Assembly: GCF_009914755.1 (NCBI RefSeq)
Contig: NC_060926.1
Strand: one strand, 5' to 3'
DNA: 64,000 nucleotides
Source of the DNA: the human T2T-CHM13v2.0 reference genome, Homo sapiens
A program made the translations under genes and the position numbers. Position 1 is the first letter of the stretch, and every line of letters begins with the position of its first letter. Positions 26,857 through 56,000 of this stretch are shown in pieces. Under the pieces are notes generated by a model that did not search any database, was not told the origin of the DNA, and saw only the letters and a program-made list of their open reading frames with translations.

Positions 26857-27350
26857 TGGAATATTATGCAGCCATAAAAGAGGAAATTGTGTCATTTGCA
26901 ACAACATGGACCGAATTGGAGGTCATTATGTTAAGTGAAACAACCCAGGCACAAAAAGACAAATATCACATGTTCTTATTCATATGTGGGAGCTTAAAAA
27001 GTTGATCACATGGAGGTAGGGAGTGAAATGATTGATACCCAAGTGAAGGGAGTATGTGAGAGTTGCAGGGCTAGGGGGAATGAATAGAGGTTGGTTAATG
27101 GGTATAAACATAGAAGAGATAGAATAAATAAGTTCTCACGTTTGATAGCAAACTATAGTTGACGATATTTCCAAATAGGTGGAAGACAGGACTTGAAATG
27201 TATCTAACATATAGAAATGGTAAATACTCAGGTGAAGAACACCTTAAATACCCTGACTTGATCATTACACAATTAATGCATGTACAGAATTTCACATGTA
27301 CCCCACAAATATGTGCAAATATAATATATCCAAAAAACAAGTAAAAGTAA
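26857..27350 (+). mobile_element. L1MA4-like 3' end (continuation of the 21250-22861 element)
   Basis: AAATACCCTGACTTGATCATTACACA...TTTCACATGTACCCCACAAATATGT is an L1MA4-type terminus. Confidence 0.85.
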
Positions 27351-28449
27351 AATCAAGACTCATAATGAACTCATGAAATTAATGACGTAACAAGTAAGAT
27401 GTTTAAGCCAATTGAAATGAGAATTGAGGAACTTGGTTTCATAGGCAACTAATTAAGAAATGTTAGGAAAAGACAGTTGCATTTAAGAAAATGGTTAGAA
27501 GTTCTTGAGAGTAGCAGACTGCCACATTTAAGGCTTTGTTTTTCAGCAGACAAAAATTATTGGCAACTTTACTGACTAGAAGTTACAAGTTAACCTCAGA
27601 CTTACAGAGTTTTAAAATAAGGCTGTCAAAAGAAGGCCAATCGAACAGGCAAACACCACAGCACTGAAAGAACACCTGATAATTTCCATTGCCTATTTCC
27701 AAGTTTCAGATATGTTTTTTTTTTTTCTGAAACTTGGAGTCAATTTAAGAACCCACCAAGCTTCCTGCTCAGATTTCTCTACTTTTAGAAATCTTTTTAG
27801 GAGCACCAAATCATCACAGTCACAGAGGAATTCTGGTTTGCCTGAATATAGGAAGTTCCAGATTACTTTCTGAAGAAAATGACTAAAGAAAGACAAAGAA
27901 AAATAACTTTATTATCTTTTTTATGGTAATTTTTTTGTTTTTGTATATACATATATATATACACACACACACACAAAATGCATAGATATAAAAATAGATA
28001 ATATTAAATATTTTCCTGTTTTATATAGGAAATATATATGTGTTTGAAATATATATATTAGGCAATATTTTCCCATTAAACTCGTCTGACCTTTATTTAT
28101 ACACCTGATTTGTCATTTCTCCAACCTGGAGAATAGAGACTTTCAAGAACGTCAAAATCTTTTGTTTGGATGCTTACCAGGGCAATATACATGGTTGTTA
28201 CATGTAGTGATGTAGTCTTTATTATTAATTAAATTTGTTAAATTTTGCTTCCTTAGAAGCCTGGATATCTTGTTACCTGGAGCATTCTGTAATTCATCCT
28301 CTGATTCTTTTGGCCCTCATGTGAACCAGATAAGCGTCAATTTGGGTCTCCAGACATTTGACAGACTAGTCAGTATTTCTGGTTTGAATGTCTGCGTCTG
28401 TTCTTTCTTGTTGTTTTCTACACACATTCAGTACCTATATATAGTTCAG

Positions 28450-30381: not shown

Positions 30382-31409
30382 ATGAGGAAAAACCAGCACA
30401 AACATGCTAAAAATTTCCAAAAGTGAGAATACTTCTCCTCAAAGTGATTGTCATGCCTCTCCGGCAAGGGCACAAAACTGGACGGAGAATGAGATTGACG
30501 AAGTGTCATAAGTAGGCCTCAGACGGTGGGTAATAACAAACTCCACTGAGCTAAAGGAGCATGTTCTAACCCAATGCAAGCACGCTAAGAATCTTGAAAA
30601 AAAGGTTACAGGAATTGCTAACTAGAATACTCAGTTTAGAGAGGAACATATATGACCTGATGGAGCTGAAAAAAACAGCATGAGAACTTAGTGAAGCATG
30701 CAAAAGTTTCAATAGCCAAATCAATACAGTGGAAGAAAGGATATCAGAGATTGAAGACCACCTTGCTGAAATAAGGCATGAAAACAAGATTAGAGAAAAA
30801 AAGACTGAATAGGAACAAACAAAGCATCCAAGAAACATGGGACTATGTGAAAAGACCAAACCTATGATTGATTGATTGGTGTACCTGAAAGTGTTGGGAA
30901 GAATGGAACCAAGTTGGAAAACACATTTCAGGATATTATCCAGGAGAACTTCTCCAATCTAGCAAGAGGCCAACATTCAAATTCAGGAAATACAGAGAAC
31001 ACCACTAAGATACTCCACAAGAAAATTGACCCCAAGACACATAATCACCAGATTCTCCAAGGCTGAAATGAAGGCAAACATGTTAAGGGCAGCCAGAGAG
31101 AAAGGTCAGGTCACCTACAATGGGAAGCCCATCAGACTAACAGCAGATCTCTCTGCAGAAATCCTACAAGCCAAAAGAGAGTGGGGGCCAATATTCAACA
31201 TTCTTACAGAAAAGAATTTCCAACCCAGAATTTCATATCCAGCCAAACTAATCTTCATAAGTGAAGGAGAAATAAAATCCTTTACAAACAAGCAAATCCT
31301 AAAAGACTTCGTCACCACCAGGCCTGCCTTGCAAGAGCTCTTGAAGGAAGCACTAAATATGGAAAGGAACAACTGGTACCAGCCACTGCAAAAACACACC
31401 AAAATATAA
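30382..31409 (+). pseudogene. L1 ORF1p remnant (frameshifted)
   Basis: MRKNQ.. start; TPRHIITRF..REKGQVTYNGKPIRLTADLS..ARE-like EWGPIF..YPAKL..WYQPLQKHTKI end. Confidence 0.93.
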
Positions 31410-31472
31410 AGACCAATGACACTATGAAGAAACTACATCAACTAGTGTGCAAAATAACCAGCTAGCATTGCG

Positions 31473-35222
<3,750 letters not shown>

Positions 35223-35319
35223 TACTTGTCTTCATTTCTAGGCTCCAAGACTATTCATTTTTGGCAATTATTCTCAAGTCAGTGCCTATGAGAAACCCTG
35301 TATCCCTGTATTTTATGAC

Positions 35320-46913: not shown

Positions 46914-48324
46914 TAGGCTATAAGTTTCTTGAGTCCTCTCAGAATTTGATTTAACTCTTGATATGGTTTGGACTGATGGGAAATACAATGATCAATAACA
47001 ATGGTATTTGTATTCCATTTGCTCATAATTTACATGCACAGGTAATTAAATTACTAATAGAGTTGGACAGATGAAACAGTATCTATATGAATACAGTCCA
47101 ACAGGAACATAGAGGAAGATACAATTTACTGTACAGGGGCGTGGAAGTGAGGTGTTAGAAATGACTGATTAGGAGATTACACACCATCTAGAACTGAGCT
47201 CATTAAAACAAGTGCAGTTAAAATATACATAAGTTTCACCAGACCCATAAGAGTCTTAATGGTAGTTTCTTTACTCTGCATTAGAATGTCTTTGCTTTCC
47301 ACAATGTTGGTTATAATCACTAGGTTTTCATTTTGCAGACAGAGGCGCTGATAGAAAGATTTCCAAGTGAAAATTTATGGTAATGATGTCTGGTTACAAT
47401 GCTTTGCATATAGTGAAATCTTCCATAATGTAAGTACTTTCTCTGGTTTTTACTTATGGGATAGTCAGAGACCTATAAATATTGCTTGACCACGTGGACC
47501 ACAATGTGAGCAGAGAGAAGGGAAAATGAGCTCTTTGCAGTTTTCATCCTACCGCCAGGTTACAATTATTAAACTTCCATTTCCATTATACATTTGTAAT
47601 CTCTCATCAGCCTAGTTAATTGACTACTTGAACTTCCAAAACTCTGCTTAAAACAAGTAAGTTATAGAAATCAAGATATTCAGAGAATCAAAAGGTGAAA
47701 GTGGTTTATGCATGCTACATTCCTGTTTTTCCTTTGAATACTTCCTTTTGCTGAAATACTCATTTCGGAAGTGCTGCGTTAGACAAATTGTATCTCTATT
47801 CTAAGATAATGGAAATACAATTTCTAAAAGTAAATTCATTGTCACAAAATAATGATGCAACTAAACAATTTGGTTCCCTCTTAGGTTTCATAACAAAGTA
47901 ATTCCACTTAAATTGTGTGAATAATGAAAGTAACTTTATTTGGGAGACTTGGTAGTTGCTGGTACTAAATAAAGAATACAGGTATATAGCTTTGCATTGT
48001 CAGAGAATATTTAATTAAAATCTTCTTACTGGGGAATAATATGTTAGAGTTAGCAACAACTCTTTCAGATCAGTGGGCAACATTTAGTGCACTTAACAGT
48101 TACTAATTTTCTTTCTTAAAGTGTTTCCTTACTGACTTACAATGTACTCAGGCATTCTGCTAAAACATTCATTAAAATACATATGAAAAATTTGTAATTT
48201 TTCTTCAGCATGAAAATGTCCCAATTTTCTAAAATTATTTTTTTCTTCTGGAGAAAACCTTTTTTCTGCCTCTAAACTTTTATTCTTTGGTGTAACAGAG
48301 CTCCAAAGGGGGAAAAAAAAAGTG

Positions 48325-48948
48325 TAAGCCACTTATTCTGGCCCATTAGATTCTATGAACATTGAGATTGCTCTGTGATCCAATTCAGCAACACAAGGTT
48401 AATGAAGAACAGGCACTTCTCTTTCCCATGATGCAGGGCAATGTCAGGAAAGATATACCTGTTTAGTTCTTGTTTGCAGATAGCTTGGGTTGGCACTGAT
48501 TAAAACTGAAACTGATGAGAGAAATGACCCGAAACAAGAGTTTTCAAAAAGATAACTGCTTTGCTTGGTTATCGCTGTTCTTCAAGTCATGGGAGTTGAC
48601 ATGCCCATCCTGATAGAGGAATGGATGCTGGTGCATTTTCCGAGTCATGGAAAAAATGTGTTCCTTTTCTTCTCACCTGTCTAGCCTCTTTCAGTGCTTT
48701 AGTAGTAAGGCTGAATACACGGTATCTTTCTCAAATTCCTTCTATTTAGAGCAATGAATTTAGAGGAATCTCTACATCTCTGTTCCCCTTTGTCTTACAT
48801 GACTGATGACAGTTGTGCGACTTGGGCCACTCTCATATATGTACCTAAAGTTATCTACAATTCCAGGATTTAGTTCTCCCTTTTTCAGTGGGAAGCCAGG
48901 GATTGAGCTAGATGATATAGGTATAACCGAATCTTCTCATTTCCATAA
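48325..48948 (+). repeat. Left arm of long inverted repeat (partner 51447-52050)
   Basis: Aligned by hand to the reverse complement of 51447-52050 over its full length, ~85% identity; no TE family recognised. Confidence 0.95.
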
Positions 48949-49624
48949 GAAGAGATAAAAAGGAAATAACTTGTGACTTTTGGTATTTTAGCTTTCATAA
49001 GGAAGACATTTGGTAACTCCTTGCAATTGATCATATCATATCAATGTCTCAGAACCCATTAGCTGAGAAGGGAAGATTTGATTGATAGAGTAGACATAAA
49101 CTTTAGATGTCTCTGATCCAAAATTTGTGATACTTCATAAGGCCAATACATAGTCCTTAGATTGTTTAATGTAGTCTTTAATTATTCAGTGTTCTCAGAA
49201 GCATTTTCATCATGAAGAATTTCTTCATGAGTTTCCATCCTGTGATTTTTCAGCTGTAATCATTGTGCATTGAATGACTTGATTATCATAATTCACATAT
49301 GATGTAGGGGCATTGTGAACTCTACATTTATTCATAAATTGATTTTACTTTTTCTCCCCAATTCCCTCTAATATTATATTAAATTGTATGTAAGGGTTTG
49401 TTAATTCAATCAGGTTAGTAACTAAAGCCCTTTGTTTTTAACCACAATTCAAATTTAAGCCCTTCTTGAGCCTTTAATCATGTAGTACATTTATTCAAAA
49501 GCAGTGACCTTCTTTAAAAGACATGGAACAATTCAGGCAGAAAGAAAAACATGAACAAGTTTTGGTCATCGAGTTTAAAAATGAACTGTGTTTGAAAGTC
49601 ATGAAACTCCATTAGAAAAATCCA

Positions 49625-49810
49625 GTGTATTAGCACGGCTTTGAATTCAAAGCTTTCACAGGCTTGAATACTAGTCCTGTTATTTACCACTTGTGGAACT
49701 AGTTACTTAACTTCAGGCCTTAGTTTACTCATATGTGAAATTTTGATAGTGGTCTTCTTGCACAGAGTTCTTATAAAAAGTACAATAATATAAAGCCAAT
49801 TTAACAGTAT
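49625..49810 (+). mobile_element. MIR within the inverted-repeat spacer
   Basis: TAGTTACTTAACTTCAGGCCTTAGTTTACTCATATGTGAAAT. Confidence 0.6.
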
Positions 49811-51446
49811 AAAATACACGTGAGTACAATTACATTATATATGTATATATACTTTATGTCTAATGTATTTAAATGTGGTAAAATCAATACTAGAATATTA
49901 CAAAGGCTCCACTGGAGCTTGCATTTGGAGTGAGGAGACCTGGCTACCATTTTTGTATCTTTTATTCCTTATCGTATCACCTGAGGAACTCCCTGAACCT
50001 CTCTGGGCCTTCTTTCCCATAGCCAGCATTATAGTTTTGGTTGGATGCTTCCCTGCAAACATTACCCCGTTGGAAACCAGAGAAGAGAGAGGGCAGAGGC
50101 TGCTTATGGAGGTCAGGATTATTGTACCTAGAGAAACGATTTTAACAGAGACCGAAATGGTGCCAGGTGTACAGCCTAGTGTTCTGATCTCAGGCACGGA
50201 TCTTGGCAGAACTCTAGTCATTATAGGTTATAATTTTCTCATAGGAATTGCAGAAAGCTATAATCTAGTGAACAACTTGAAGGTCCTCGAGTCATCCTAG
50301 GAACTATAGATACTTGACTAAAGCAAAAAAACTAGTTCCCAGTCTTGCATTCTGAAAATATTATGTTTCAGCTGTACTCTCTGTCTGGGTCAGGCAGAGG
50401 TACAGGTGAAAGATCTGCCTACTAACCCAAACCTTAGTACAGTGAACAGAGGTGGGGAGGACTCAAAATAACATCTACCCCAGAGTGTTGTTATAAGGTC
50501 CAGGGATAATAATTTATGAAGAGATGCTATGTCTAATATAAAATGGAAAATAGAATTTTGGCTTATATAATTAAACATTTTAATTGAGATTGCCTTTTCA
50601 ACTACTTTAAAATAGATTATTGATTTATATAATATAATCTAACATACTGGCTAATTGACATTGATTTTCCCTTACTGGTGAATTTATGTTCTTTTCTAAT
50701 GTTGTCCAAATATTATTTACCCAGGTAAGATATAGCAAAAACATAATTATTTATAGGAGATTCAACTCAGCTGGTGGAAAGAAAACACTGAAAGTATTTT
50801 GAGATTTAGAATAATATACTCTAATTGTGTTAACATTCTGTTGATAGCATTGTTACTTTTTTTCCATGGTGCCAAATCTTATTCACTTTCCTCAGGTATT
50901 GCTTTATTTTTTTTAATTGATTATTTTCAAGTCCCTGGTGGTGCTAAGGAGAACATAGAATTCTCCTTAGAGTACAAATAACTCCTAAACCACAATATAT
51001 TAATTTGTGGCCATCTTGTTCCTAAGCCAACTATTTATCAGAGCTGGCAGAGGGAGGGGGAAAAAACAGAAAGTACAAATTTTGCTAAGACATTCCTTGT
51101 ACCTAATGATATACTCCAAAAGAGAACAGAAAGTAGACGAAGAAAGGGAAGAAAAAAAAAACATGAACAATATATTCAATGAGAACGTAGGCACCAGTAT
51201 TCAAAATGATGATCTATAAATGTGAATGCTCTAACAAGTATCATTTGTCACTCATAAGTGAATAGTTTTAGTAACACATTTTCCAAGGACAGGCAATACA
51301 GATATAATATCTTATGTGTAAGATTCAACAAATTTTTATAATTTAACGCATAGTTAAATTTCTTTCTTTTACTTTCTTTGAGCAAAAAAATCTCCCTCTT
51401 CTGCAGTTGATTTTCTTTAAATATATTTTGTGATATTTATTTTATG

Positions 51447-52050
51447 TTATGGAAATAAGAGGATTCAGATACATTTATGCCATCTAGCTCAATCTCTAGC
51501 TTTCTTATTGAGAAAGGGAGAACTAAATTCTGGAATTGTAGATAACCTTAGGTACATACATGAGAGTGGCCCAAGTCATGCAAGTGTCATCAGTCATGTA
51601 GAAAAAAGAGGAACAGAGGTGTAGAGATTCCTCTAAATAAAAGGGATTTGAGAAAGATACCCTGTATTCAGCCTTACTATTAAAGCACTGAAAGAGACTA
51701 GGCAGATGAGAAGAAAAGGAACCCTTTTTTTTCCCATGCCTTGGAAAATGCACCAGGATCCATTCCTATATCAGGATGGATATGTCAACTCCCATGGCTT
51801 CAAAAAGAGGGATAACAAAACACAACAGTTATCTATTAAAGAACTCTTGTTTCAGGTCATTTCTCTCATCAGTTTTAATCAGTGCCAACCCAATCTATCT
51901 GCAAACAACCAAACATGTATATCTTTCTTGACTTTGCCCTACTTCATGGGAAAGGGAAGTGCTTGTTCTTGATTAACCTTGTATTGCTGAATTTGATCAC
52001 CAGACAATCTCAGTGTTCATAGACTTTAATTGGTCAGAATAAGGGTCTTA
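51447..52050 (-). repeat. Right arm of long inverted repeat (partner 48325-48948)
   Basis: For example ATGAGAGTGGCCCAAGTC pairs with GACTTGGGCCACTCTCAT, and CAGTTTTAATCAGTGCCAACCCAA pairs with TTGGGTTGGCACTGATTAAAACTG. Confidence 0.95.
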
Positions 52051-52239
52051 AGTTTTGATTTTTGGAGATTTATTGCATTAATGAAAAAATGAGGGTATAA
52101 GGAAAGCTTTCCATCAGCCAATCTAGATTCAGATATAACACACATATTGGAATTATTAGAGGGAATTTACAATAACTATGATTAATACTTAAGGCCTCTA
52201 GTGAAAAAGGCTTATAATACGTATGGAAAGTTGGGGAAC

Positions 52240-52960
52240 TTAGCATCATGATAGAAACCCTAAGAAAAAAAATAAAATAGAAATACCAGAAATGAAGAAC
52301 ATCCACAATGTCAGACATGAAAAATGCTTTTCATGATCCATCAGTAGTCTTGATGGAGCTAAAGAAGAAATCAATGAACTTGAAGTTTTTTCAGTAAAAA
52401 TTATCCAAAACTGAAACTCAGTGCACAAAAAAAAAAAAAAGAATGGGAGATGGAACAAATCAGAGCTGCCAAGAGCCATGAGACAATATAAAACCACCTA
52501 TAATACCTGTAATTGGAATCCAACAAGAAGAACAGAGAGGAAAAAAAGGGCAGGATATACATATAAGGAGATAATGGCTGCAAGTTTTTCAAAACTTAAG
52601 ACTTCAGCCACTGATATAAGAACTGAGAGCACTAAACAGAATAAAACCTAGAGAAATTTATACCAGGCACATAGTATTTAAATAAGTGAAAAACAAAGAA
52701 AACCCAAATCTTTAAGGTAGACAGAAAAAAAATAAGTATGAACTATGGATGCATTTTGTAATATAGATGAATCTCAAATGTGAAGAAAACCAGACCCAAA
52801 TGGCTACCTATTGTGTGATTTCATTTATATGGCATTCTGAAATCTATGTAAAACTGTAAGTATGGAAAACATATCAGTGAATTCCAAGGGCTAGAATAGT
52901 GATTTTGACTTGAGAGAGATACTAAGAAATTTTTGTAGGTGATGAAACTTTTATATATTT
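52240..52960 (+). mobile_element. Ancient L1ME fragments (ORF1-like and 3'UTR)
   Basis: GAAGAAATCAATGAACTTGAAG; TAATTGGAATCCAACAAGAAG; TTGTGTGATTTCATTTATATGGCATTCTG; resumes at ~56311. Confidence 0.6.
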
Positions 52961-53029
52961 ATTATTAAATTAAAAAAATATATTTTTATTACATTAAAAA
53001 TATATTTTTTCATTACATTAAAAATATAT

Positions 53030-56000
53030 ATTTTTAATTTTGTGGGTACATAGTAGGTATATATCTTTATGGGTTACATGGGATATTTTGATATAGGCAT
53101 GCAATGCATAATAATCACATTAGGGCAAATGGGGTGTCCATCACCTCAAGCATTTATCCTTTGTGTTACAAACAATCCAATAATATTTCTTCAGGTATTT
53201 TAAAATGTACAATTATATTATTTTTGACTATAGTCACTCTGTTGTGCTAGTAAGTATTAAATCTTATTCATTCTTTCTATTTTTTTAACCCATTAACCAT
53301 CCTCACTCCCATCCCCAACAACCCTCTCACTACCCTTCCCAGTCTCTGGTAAACATTCTTCTATTCCCTATCTCTATGAGTTCAATTATTTTATTAATAA
53401 TTTTTAGCTCTCACAAATAAGTGAGAACATGTGATATTTCTTGTTCTGTGCCTGGCTTATTTCACTTAGTGTAATGACCATCGGTTTCATCGATGTTGAT
53501 GCAAATGACAGGATCTCATTATTTTTTATGGCTGAATAGTACTCTATTGTGTATACATACCACATTTTTTTTTATCCATTCATCTGCTGATGAACACTCA
53601 GGTGCTCCCAAATCTTGGCTATTGTTTACATGGCTGCAACTAACATGGGAGTGGATACATCTCTTTGATATACTGATTTCCTTTCTGGGGGGTACATTCT
53701 CAGCAGTGGGATTGTTGGATTGTATGGTAGCTTTATTTGTCATTGCTTGAGAAACCTCCAAACTCTTCTCTATAGTGATTGTACTAACTTATATTCCCAT
53801 CAATAATGTATGAGGGTTTTCTTTTCTCCACATTCTTGCCAGCATTTGTTGTTGCCTATCTTTTGGATAAAAGCCATTTTAACTGCAGTGAGATAATATC
53901 TCATTATAGTTTTGATTTGCATTTACTGATGATCAATGATGCTGAGCACCTTTTCATAAGTCTGTTTGCCTTTTGTGTGTTTTCTTTTGAGAAATGGCTA
54001 TTCAGATATTTTGCCCACTTTTTAATTGAATCATCAGAATTTTTCCAGTAGAGTTGTTTGAGCTCCTTATATATTCTTGTTATTAATCCATTGTCACATG
54101 AGTAGTTTGCAAATATCTTCTTGCCTTCTGAAGGTTGTCTCTTCACTTTGTTGATTGCTTCCTTTGCTGTGCAGAAACTTTTTAACTTGACATTATTACA
54201 TTTATCATTTTTGCTTTGGTTGCCTGTGCTTGTGGGGTATGACTCAATAAATCTTTGCCCAGACCAATGTCCTGGAGAGTTTTTCCAATGTTTTCTTTTA
54301 GTAATTAGTAGTTTGAGGTATTAGATTTAAGTATTTAACCCATTTTGATTTGAGTTTTTATACATGATGAGAGATAGGGGTCTAGTTTCATTCTTCTACA
54401 AATAAATATCACGTTTTTCCAGCATCATTTATTGAAGAGACTGTCCTTTCCTCAGTGTGTGTTCTTGGCAGCTTTGCAAAAATGAGTTCACTGTGGATGT
54501 ATGCATTTGTTTCTTGGTTCTCTATTTTGTTCCAATGGTCTACATGTCTACTTCTATGCCAGTACCAAGCTGTTTTGGTTACTGTAGCTCCATAGTATAA
54601 TTTAAATTCAGGTAATGTGATTCCTCCGTTTTGTTTTTACTTAGGGTAACTTTGGTTATTGTGGGTCTTTTGTGATTCCATATAAGTTTTACAATTGTTT
54701 TTTCTAATTCTGTGAAGAATGTCATTGGTATTTTGATAGGGATCACATTTAATCTGTAGATTGCTTTGGGAAGTATGCATATTTTAACAATATTGATTCT
54801 TCCCATCCATAAACATGGAATACCTTTTCATTGTTTTGTCTGCTCTTCAATTTATTTCATAAATGTTTTATAGTTTTCATTGTAGAAATATTTCACTAGT
54901 TTGCTTAGGTAAATTCCTAGGTGTTTAATTTGTGGCTATTGTAAATGGGATTACTTTATTTCTTTTTAAGATTGTCTTCTGTTGGCATATAGAAATGTCA
55001 CTTATTTATGTATGTTGATTTTATATCCTGAAACTTTACTGAACTTCTCAGTTCTAATAGTTTTTTTTGTGGAATCTGTAGTGTTTTCCCAGTATAAGAT
55101 CATATTATCTGCAAACAAAGATAATTTGACTTTTTCCTTCCTAATTTGGATGTCCTTTATTTCTTTCTATTATCTGATTGCTTTATCTAAGACTTCCAAT
55201 ACTATGCTGAATAACAGTGGTGAAAGTGGGCATCATTGTTACGTTTTAGATCTTAGGGAAAACCATTTCTGTTTTTCCCCATTCACTATGATACAAGCTG
55301 CAGGTCTGCCATATAGGGCTTTTATTATGTTGAGGTAGGATCCTCTATACACAGTTTTTCAGGGTGTTTATCATGAAGGGATGTTGAATTTTATCAAATA
55401 ATTATCCAGTATCAATTGAATGATCATATGATTTTTGTCTTTCATTTTGTTGATATGATGTATGACATTTATTTGCATATATGGACCCACCTTTGCATCT
55501 CTAGGATAAATCCCACTAGGTCATGATGAATTATCTTTTTAATGTGTTGGTACATTCAGTTTGCTTCTATTTTATTGAAAAATTTTTGCATCAATATCCA
55601 TCAGTCATATTGGCCTGTAGTTTTTGTTTTTTTTTGATGTGTCATTGTCTGATTTTGGTGTCGGAGAAATATAATACTGTCCTTGCAGAATGAGTTCGGA
55701 AGTATTCCATCCTCCTCTATTTTTCAGAATACTCTGAGTAGAATTGTGTTAGTTCTTCTTTAAATGTTTGCTAGACTCCAGCGGTGTCCTGGACTTTTCT
55801 TTACTGGCAGACTTTTTATGGCTACAATCTCATGACTTGTTATTGTTCTGTTAAGATTTTGGATTTCTTCATAGTTCAATCTTGGTAGGTTGTATGGGTC
55901 TAGGAATTTATTCATTTCTTCTAGATTTTCCAATTTATTGGTATATAGCTGCTCATAGGAGCCACAAATTCTCCTTTGAATTTCTGTGGTATCAGTTGTA

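What the first reader, a model, noticed from the sequence alone, without database searches (positions are those of the whole stretch)
48325..52050. Long inverted repeat of apparently unique DNA: ~620-bp arms around a ~2.5-kb spacer
Seen: 48325-48948 aligns end to end with the reverse complement of 51447-52050 at roughly 85% identity (by eye). It has many perfect blocks of 15-25 bp (TTGGGTTGGCACTGATTAAAACTG; TAGTAAGGCTGAATACA; GACTTGGGCCACTCTCAT) and only a few small indels. I do not recognise the arms as Alu, L1, MIR, LTR or a known DNA-transposon TIR, and I see no TSD or transposase. Known: transcribed long inverted repeats make dsRNA that is an ADAR substrate, can yield endo-siRNA and can drive back-splicing of enclosed exons. 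Inference: this is a local inverted duplication that could act as a ~600-bp non-Alu RNA duplex, a paired regulatory module, or an undescribed long-TIR (foldback-like) element. It is the main structure in the window not explained by ordinary repeats.
Basis: partly seen in the sequence, partly recalled or inferred. Interest (0 to 1): 0.85.

Follow-up and report, generated by a model that had tools for sequence, protein, structure and literature searches.

The report
Old local inverted duplication, apparently inert
A stretch of about 640 bases of single-copy human DNA was once copied backwards 2.5 kb away in a gene desert, and the two copies have since drifted apart like unconstrained DNA, so it looks like an ordinary rearrangement scar.

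Summary
The inverted repeat is real. Arm 1 (48313-48959) matches the reverse complement of arm 2 (51436-52062) at 86-87% identity, with 8-9 small indels, across a 2,476-bp spacer (blastn E 3.6e-172).

The arms are not copies of an interspersed repeat. A search of the whole 3.1-Gb assembly finds only these two copies. The same tool returned 11,946, 6,746 and 232 candidates for three control repeats from the window, scored at 88-91%, 80-83% and 66-87% identity.

Nothing points to a mobile element:
- The spacer and left flank are single-copy.
- There is no target-site duplication, Pfam domain or Rfam family.

Nothing points to constraint either:
- The longest exact block (25 bp) is no longer than chance predicts.
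- The indel-to-substitution ratio is about 0.11.
- Transitions show no bias toward keeping G:U pairs.

Best reading: a one-off local inverted duplication from roughly 30-70 Myr ago (age inferred), made by fold-back or template-switch repair or by a staggered-break micro-inversion. It now appears inert. An RNA duplex is possible in silico, but no gene is annotated here and transcription could not be tested. Low interest.

The parts
48313..48959 (+). Arm 1 of the inverted repeat (647 bp), 39.8% G+C over 48279-48959, 6 CpG
   Evidence: 541/622 aligned bases identical to the reverse complement of arm 2; only two places in the whole assembly (itself and arm 2).
51436..52062 (-). Arm 2 of the inverted repeat (627 bp), 36.1% G+C over 51436-52089, 0 CpG
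   Evidence: whole-assembly search at E<=10 returns only itself and arm 1.
48279..48312 (.). Weak A-rich outer extension of arm 1 (its partner is 52063-52089). Membership is doubtful.
   Evidence: 20 of 28 aligned bases; 4 of 20 copies of the neighbouring old repeat align into 52074-52090, so the partner stretch may belong to that repeat instead.
48960..51435 (.). Spacer, 2,476 bp, single-copy, 33.4% G+C, no coding or RNA-family signal
   Evidence: self only in the assembly, E<=1; Rfam: nothing near threshold; stop-to-stop ORFs >=45 aa: no Pfam family reaches its cut-off.
52112..52443 (+). Context, not part of the repeat: the 5' end of an old interspersed repeat lies 23-50 bases beyond arm 2's outer end
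   Evidence: 232 candidates, 40 scored (the query's own place plus 39 others at 66-87%); 19 of 20 fetched copies align, 15 of them starting at 52111-52150 and 4 at 52074-52090; in 11 of 20 other copies the family continues >=600 bp back from the end of the fetched stretch. Calling it L1 ORF1-like is by eye only (searches gave no significant support).

Best explanation
This is the relic of a single local inverted duplication. A stretch of about 630-650 bp of ordinary single-copy DNA was copied in reverse orientation about 2.5 kb away.

The more likely mechanism (inferred) is a broken or stalled 3' end that folded back or switched template. It copied the stretch on the opposite strand and was then rejoined. 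On this reading the spacer keeps its original orientation and one arm is the new copy, possibly arm 2, which abuts a truncated old repeat. The alternative route is a micro-inversion with a staggered break at one end. Fill-in would then leave inverted duplicates of the breakpoint sequence flanking an inverted spacer.

Since the event, both copies have accumulated substitutions and small indels at what looks like the neutral rate, about 7% each. That places the event at very roughly 30-70 Myr ago, in early anthropoid primates (inferred from recalled rates). Today it most likely does nothing. At 86-87% identity with a 2.5-kb spacer it is a poor substrate for recombination or cruciform formation, and it lies in an unannotated gene desert.
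For: Shown:
1. The pair is real and far beyond chance.
2. There are exactly two copies in the 3.1-Gb assembly, for either arm as query: 2 first-look candidates each.
3. The same tool detects repeats from the window well. It returned 11,946 candidates (40 scored: itself plus 39 at 88-91%) for an L1 piece. It returned 6,746 candidates (the 40 scored gave 42 match rows; 39 full-length matches at 80-83%) for a repeat at 52976-53498. It returned 232 candidates (40 scored: itself plus 39 at 66-87%) for the old repeat at 52112-52443. A family of the arms' divergence would therefore have been seen.
4. The spacer and left flank are single-copy.
5. The divergence looks neutral. K2P is 0.144 for the core and 0.136 without CpG sites, with 50 transitions and 31 transversions, and 8-9 indel events against 81-83 substitutions. 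The longest exact word is 25 bp and the longest run in the alignment is 21, against 27.9 +/- 6.4 expected from random placement.
6. There is no bias toward G:U-preserving transitions on either transcript strand (31 vs 21, p = 0.21).

From print (passages read):
- Inverted duplicates of ancestrally unique sequence flank 17 of 29 Drosophila inversions. Their median size is 321 bp, none exceeds about 1.9 kb, and they are often one-sided (PMC1885836).
- Human fold-back inverted duplications carry single-copy spacers of 766-70,466 bp, median 3,428 bp (PMC3907307). The 2,476-bp spacer here falls within that range.
Against: - No outgroup genome was available. The age, which arm is the copy, and the ancestral orientation of the spacer are all untested, and the two mechanisms cannot be separated.
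- Mismatch density is mildly uneven along the arms (chi-square p = 0.021, 12 bins). Most of the excess is in the two end bins.
- Arm 1 keeps 6 CpG and arm 2 none (p = 0.031). Arm 1 is also G+C-richer at differing sites (43 vs 24, p = 0.027). These are post-hoc tests on small numbers, but they would also fit different germline methylation or constraint on arm 1.
- 'Inert' rests on absence of evidence. Transcription, editing and chromatin data could not be consulted.
- The old repeat's 5' end next to arm 2 could be an ordinary 5' truncation. In 9 of 20 other copies, collinear homology reaches only 250-533 bp back from the end of the fetched stretch.
Confidence: 0.78

Rival explanations
1. The repeat is transcribed in some tissue as part of an unannotated RNA and folds into a non-Alu duplex of about 620 bp. 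That duplex would be edited by ADAR, diced into endo-siRNAs, or influence splicing.
For: In silico the arms cofold at -847 kcal/mol (+ strand RNA) and -824 kcal/mol (- strand RNA), against -314 with one arm shuffled. 562 of 647 bases pair and the longest uninterrupted helix is 45-49 bp. With G:U pairs, 91.7% (+) or 90.0% (-) of aligned positions can pair. A genome-wide scan in print predicts about half a million dsRNAs in non-repetitive human DNA (PMC11838218, passages).
Against: The hub's gene table has no gene in the window, none within 100 kb before it, and the nearest after it (a lncRNA) about 62 kb away. Rfam finds nothing. There is no sign of selection for pairing: no excess of G:U-compatible transitions (p = 0.21) and no long conserved block. 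In the same preprint only 4,597 of roughly 500,000 non-repetitive predicted dsRNAs are edited. At 87% paired it fails that paper's 'long, highly paired' criterion of >300 bp and >96% paired.
Confidence: 0.08
2. A non-autonomous DNA transposon with about 640-bp terminal inverted repeats (foldback-like or long-TIR), present as a single surviving copy.
For: The architecture, two long inverted ends around an interior, is what such an element would look like.
Against: There is one locus in 3.1 Gb and the interior is also single-copy. No Pfam family reached its cut-off in any of 32 stop-to-stop ORFs of >=45 aa over 48129-52330 (the ORFs overlapping 48200-52150); the best score was 16.9 bits against a cut-off of 25. 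No target-site duplication: the longest direct word between the two outer zones is a 7-mer, GAAAAAA, reached by 184 of 300 shuffles.
Confidence: 0.04
3. Two independent insertions of a low-copy or very old interspersed repeat that happen to lie head to head.
For: NCBI's masking misses some repeats in this window. The stretches at 52112-52443 and 52976-53498 are repeats but are not among the listed masked stretches. The own-genome search found no relatives for a stretch I took by eye to be MIR, so very old short repeats can escape it.
Against: Two copies that are 86-87% alike would belong to a family whose other members are about equally close, and the tool finds such members for three control repeats down to 66-72%. 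Here it finds none. The arms are collinear end to end over about 640 bp, and the only two copies in the genome lie 2.5 kb apart.
Confidence: 0.05

Closest known systems
Inverted duplications of breakpoint sequence left by staggered-break inversions (Ranz et al. 2007, PMC1885836; passages read)
   Same: Inverted duplicates of ancestrally unique, non-repetitive sequence flank a segment. Sizes in that study were 46 bp to about 1.9 kb (median 321 bp), the duplication was often at one breakpoint only, and the duplicates decay by substitutions and small indels (mean identity about 88%).
   Different: That work is on Drosophila, with inversions of chromosomal scale. Here the enclosed segment is only 2.5 kb, in human, and whether the spacer is inverted relative to the ancestor could not be tested.
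Fold-back inverted duplications with a single-copy spacer (Hermetz et al. 2014, PMC3907307; passages read)
   Same: An inverted and a non-inverted copy are separated by a non-duplicated spacer of 766-70,466 bp (median 3,428 bp). The spacer here is 2,476 bp.
   Different: Those events duplicate megabases, pass through a dicentric chromosome and carry terminal deletions. Here only about 640 bp was copied and the event was resolved locally. The short inverted microhomology at the junction cannot be read after about 14% divergence.
Long inverted repeats (LIRs) catalogued in the human genome (Lirex, PMC5414712; passages read) and predicted non-repetitive dsRNAs (dsRNAscan preprint, PMC11838218; passages read)
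   Same: It meets the Lirex working definition: arms >30 bp and mismatch rate <15%. Here the arms are about 640 bp with 13% mismatch. It would also fall within a 10-kb scan for intramolecular duplexes.
   Different: It is much longer than the typical catalogued LIR (the listed examples are 31-122 bp). The spacer exceeds the 2-kb window used in the Lirex case study. I could not check whether this locus is in either catalogue, because I did not see the supplements.
Segmental duplication
   Same: A duplicated stretch of non-repeat genomic DNA.
   Different: It falls below the usual thresholds. The abstract of PMC4053137 (search listing only) gives >90% identity. The >=1 kb length criterion is recalled, not from a call. 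The arms are about 640 bp at 86-87%.

Membership tests
Interspersed repeat pair (Alu, L1, LTR, MIR, DNA-transposon copies) | Further copies elsewhere in the genome at similar divergence | tested here: not met
   2 candidates each (self and partner). Controls gave 11,946, 6,746 and 232 candidates.
Long-TIR / foldback DNA transposon | Terminal inverted repeats | tested here: met
   This is true of any inverted duplication, so it does not discriminate.
Long-TIR / foldback DNA transposon | Target-site duplication flanking the ends | tested here: not met
   the longest direct word between the outer zones is 7 bp, reached by 184 of 300 shuffles. The ends are fuzzy after about 14% divergence, so a short TSD could be erased.
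Long-TIR / foldback DNA transposon | Multiple copies, or a related autonomous element with transposase | tested here: not met
   (single locus); none of 32 ORFs reaches a Pfam cut-off.
Staggered-break inversion scar | Inverted duplicates of otherwise unique sequence directly flanking the segment | tested here: met
Staggered-break inversion scar | Enclosed segment inverted relative to the ancestral order | not testable with these tools
   No other primate or mammalian genome is held. A continuation of the neighbouring old repeat, which this model could place inverted next to arm 1, was not found, but that repeat may simply be 5'-truncated.
Fold-back / template-switch inverted duplication | Single-copy spacer of about 1 kb to tens of kb between the inverted copies | tested here: met
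   2,476 bp, single-copy. The range in PMC3907307 is 766-70,466 bp.
Fold-back / template-switch inverted duplication | Short inverted microhomology at the spacer/duplication junction | tested here: inconclusive
   Junction sequences were printed. After about 14% divergence the end of homology cannot be placed to the base.
Endogenous long dsRNA (ADAR / Dicer / MDA5 substrate) | Long intramolecular duplex | tested here: met
   562 of 647 bases paired in cofold. The >96% paired criterion for putative MDA5 substrates in PMC11838218 is not met.
Endogenous long dsRNA (ADAR / Dicer / MDA5 substrate) | Both arms on one transcript; A-to-I editing or small RNAs | not testable with these tools
   No expression data are held. 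The hub's gene table lists no gene in the window.
Segmental duplication | >90% identity (and >=1 kb, recalled) | tested here: not met
   86-87% identity over about 640 bp

The most novel reading that the evidence does not exclude
Arm 1 is not neutral DNA. It keeps all 6 CpGs where arm 2 has none, and it is G+C-richer at differing sites. It could therefore be a germline-hypomethylated or bound element, with the pair transcribed in some cell type into a non-Alu duplex of about 620 bp and about 90% pairing. That RNA would be edited or diced, making this a primate-specific dsRNA locus in the gene desert (by recall, the one distal to CTNNA2).
Probability: 0.06. Interest if true: 0.5.

Novelty: new member of a known kind. 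Interest (0 to 1): 0.15.

Why it matters
It matters little as it stands. It is a clean, datable example of a small inverted duplication of unique DNA in the human genome. With primate outgroups it could show whether such scars arise by fold-back or template switching (spacer not inverted) or by staggered-break micro-inversion (spacer inverted). The second mechanism is documented in the papers I read only for flies. If the region were transcribed, it would be one of the rarer long duplexes not built from Alu. Nothing seen here suggests that it is transcribed.

Tried and rejected
- Rfam scan of 47000-53500 at E<=1 gave only two chance-level rows, mir-737 (25.6 bits vs 60) and snoZ30a (21.2 vs 80). 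Neither is in an arm.
- Pfam on 32 stop-to-stop ORFs gave nothing at a cut-off.
- A search for extension of the inverted homology beyond the arms, or for other copies in the window, found none.
- I took 49600-50020 in the spacer for MIR by eye. Neither the assembly search (self only) nor a sensitive in-window blastn (nothing below E 0.17) supports that, so I make no argument from it.
- I tried to use the old repeat beside arm 2 to polarise the event. I fetched 20 other copies with 1.5 kb upstream and looked for the family's upstream part next to either arm or in the spacer. None was found.
- My first measure of upstream homology among those copies was inflated by Alu insertions in the fetched stretches, as one search showed. 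The collinear re-count shows the family continues upstream in 11 of 20 copies. In the other 9, collinear homology reaches only 250-533 bp back. The window copy may therefore be an ordinary 5' truncation, and the test is uninformative.
- The L1 ORF1 identity of that repeat got no Pfam hit and only E 0.36-0.83 by blastp against the window's own L1.
- PMC3961182 (passages) gave nothing usable on small, diverged inverted repeats.
Full report
**Observation.** The inverted repeat exists as described. The repeat finder returns six collinear inverted segments (78-98% complementary) that tile 48313-48959 against 51436-52062.

- A local alignment over 48279-48959 vs the reverse complement of 51436-52089 has 561 matches, 89 mismatches and 35 gap columns in 10 events. 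That is 86.3% of aligned bases.
- The strong core, 48313-48959 vs 51436-52062, has 541 of 622 identical (87.0%). A realignment of the same core gave 540 of 623.
- The outermost 34/27 bases match at only 20 of 28 and are A-rich.
- Sensitive blastn of 47000-53500 against the whole window gives E 3.6e-172 for this pair. It shows no further inverted homology beyond the arms and no other copy in the 64 kb.
- The spacer is 2,476 bp.
The longest exact shared word is 25 bp.

**Not a known repeat pair.** The whole 3.1-Gb assembly holding the window was searched with each arm. The first look found 2 candidates each time, the arm itself and its partner (83% by that tool's alignment), even at E<=10. The tool warns that it can miss repeats, so I ran controls from the same window:

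| Control | Candidates | Scored matches |
|---|---|---|
| L1 piece, 33633-34292 | 11,946 | 40 scored: itself plus 39 at 88-91% |
| Repeat at 52976-53498 | 6,746 | 40 scored, 42 match rows; 39 full-length matches at 80-83% |
| Flank 52090-52975 | 232 | 40 scored: itself plus 39 at 66-87%, nearly all over 52112-52443 |

The tool therefore sees interspersed families at and well below the arm-to-arm identity, yet it finds none for the arms. A stretch of the spacer that I took by eye for MIR found only itself, so very old short repeats can escape. Two copies 86-87% alike cannot belong to such an old family unless they were duplicated from each other. The spacer and the left flank 47300-48278 are also single-copy.

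**Not a mobile element or gene.**
- None of the 32 stop-to-stop ORFs of >=45 aa overlapping 48200-52150 reaches a Pfam cut-off. The best score is 16.9 bits against a cut-off of 25.
- Rfam gives two chance-level rows outside the arms.
- The longest direct word shared by the two outer zones is a 7-mer, reached by 184 of 300 shuffles, so there is no target-site duplication.
- The hub's table lists no gene or functional element in the window.

**How the arms have diverged.**
- K2P distance is 0.153 overall, 0.144 for the core and 0.136 without CpG sites. There are 50 transitions and 31 transversions in the core.
- There are 8-9 indel events of 1-10 bp against 81-83 substitutions, a ratio of about 0.11. 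One 6-bp indel is a tandem AAACTG duplication in arm 1.
- The longest identical run in the alignment is 21 (25 with other gap placement). Random placement of the same number of differences gives 27.9 +/- 6.4, and 92.7% of simulations reach the observed value. The '15-25 bp perfect blocks' are therefore what chance gives at this identity.
- Transitions that would keep a G:U pair number 31 on the + strand and 21 on the - strand (p = 0.21). There is no sign of selection for pairing in either orientation.
- Against a perfectly even decay, mismatch density differs among 12 bins (p = 0.021). Most of the excess is in the two end bins.
- Arm 1 has 6 CpG and arm 2 none (p = 0.031). At differing sites arm 1 has G/C where arm 2 has A/T 43 times, against 24 the other way (p = 0.027). 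These are post-hoc tests on small numbers, and I record them as unexplained.

**Age (inference).** Each arm carries about 0.07 substitutions per site since the event. With neutral rates of 1-2.2 x 10^-9 per site per year (recalled, not from a call), that is about 30-70 Myr, around the early anthropoid radiation. Gene conversion between the arms would make it look younger. No other primate genome is held, so this is untested.

**Mechanism (inference).** Two known routes give this architecture.

*Fold-back or template switching.* A 3' end at the right edge of the spacer primes on the opposite strand at the inner end of the stretch, copies about 640 bases, and is rejoined. Human fold-back inverted duplications always carry a single-copy spacer, 766-70,466 bp with a median of 3,428 bp (PMC3907307, passages).

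*Inversion with a staggered break.* Fill-in duplicates the breakpoint sequence in inverted orientation at both ends of the inverted segment. In Drosophila, 17 of 29 inversions carry such duplicates of unique sequence, 46 bp to about 1.9 kb, with sequences from only one breakpoint region duplicated in 12 inversions and from both in six (PMC1885836, passages).

The two routes differ in whether the spacer is inverted relative to the ancestor.

I tried to polarise the event with the old repeat that starts at about 52112, which is 23-50 bases beyond arm 2.
- 19 of 20 fetched copies align there. 15 start at 52111-52150 and 4 at 52074-52090.
- In 11 of 20 other copies the family continues at least 600 bp back from the end of the fetched stretch (collinear count). 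The first count was inflated by Alu insertions, as one search showed.
- That upstream part is not found beside either arm or in the spacer.

This fits a break in the repeat with loss of sequence, with arm 2 as the new copy. In the other 9 of 20 copies, however, collinear homology reaches only 250-533 bp back, so an ordinary 5' truncation is as good an explanation. I lean to fold-back or template switching without a test that separates the two.

**The dsRNA reading.** If both arms were on one RNA they would pair. Cofold gives -847 kcal/mol (+ strand) and -824 kcal/mol (- strand), against -314 with a shuffled arm. 562 of 647 bases pair, and the longest helix is 45-49 bp. This is a property of any inverted repeat.

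A preprint that scanned the human genome predicts about 5 million dsRNAs. About half a million of them lie in non-repetitive DNA, and only 4,597 of those are edited. Its criterion for putative MDA5 substrates, >300 bp and >96% paired, is not met here (PMC11838218, passages). No gene is annotated in the window or within 100 kb before it, and the nearest after it is about 62 kb away. I could not consult expression or editing data.

**Comparison and novelty.** The thing is a long inverted repeat in the sense used by LIR surveys: arms >30 bp and mismatch <15% (PMC5414712, passages). It is longer than the examples listed there, and its spacer lies beyond the 2-kb window used in that case study. It falls short of the segmental-duplication thresholds (>90% identity, abstract of PMC4053137 in the listing; >=1 kb, recalled). 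It is a new instance of a known kind.

My four literature searches addressed the class, not this locus. None could have found this locus in print, and I did not see the supplementary catalogues.

**Verdict.** The transposon and regulatory-module readings are not supported. The dsRNA reading is untested and unlikely to matter. Interest is low.

Noticed in passing
window 48313-48959 vs 51436-52062: The arms differ in composition. Arm 1 has 6 CpG and arm 2 none (p = 0.031). At differing sites arm 1 is G/C where arm 2 is A/T 43 times, against 24 the other way (p = 0.027). This could be chance, regional mutation bias, or different germline methylation.
   Followed up: partly
window 52112-52443 (+): An old interspersed repeat whose 5' end lies 23-50 bases beyond arm 2: 232 candidates in the assembly, 40 scored (itself plus 39 at 66-87% identity). 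By eye it looks like an ancient L1 ORF1 region, but Pfam gave nothing and blastp against the window's own L1 was not significant. It is not among the masked stretches listed by the hub.
   Followed up: partly
window 52976-53498 (+), and 26902-27404 (-): A middle-aged interspersed repeat: 6,746 candidates in the assembly, and 39 of the scored matches are full-length at 80-83% identity. Many of the best hits are on contig C23. A 63%-identical inverted relative lies at 26902-27404 in the window. It is not in the hub's list of masked stretches, which shows that an unmasked stretch here can still be a repeat.
   Followed up: partly
window 52952-53040: A short AT-rich near-palindrome at the start of that repeat: 37-nt arms with no spacer at 81% complementarity, plus an overlapping pair of 30-nt arms. 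It is low-complexity sequence.
   Followed up: no
window 30825-35226: A long L1 segment in + orientation, interrupted into several masked blocks. Its piece at 33633-34292 has relatives at 88-91% identity across the assembly.
   Followed up: no
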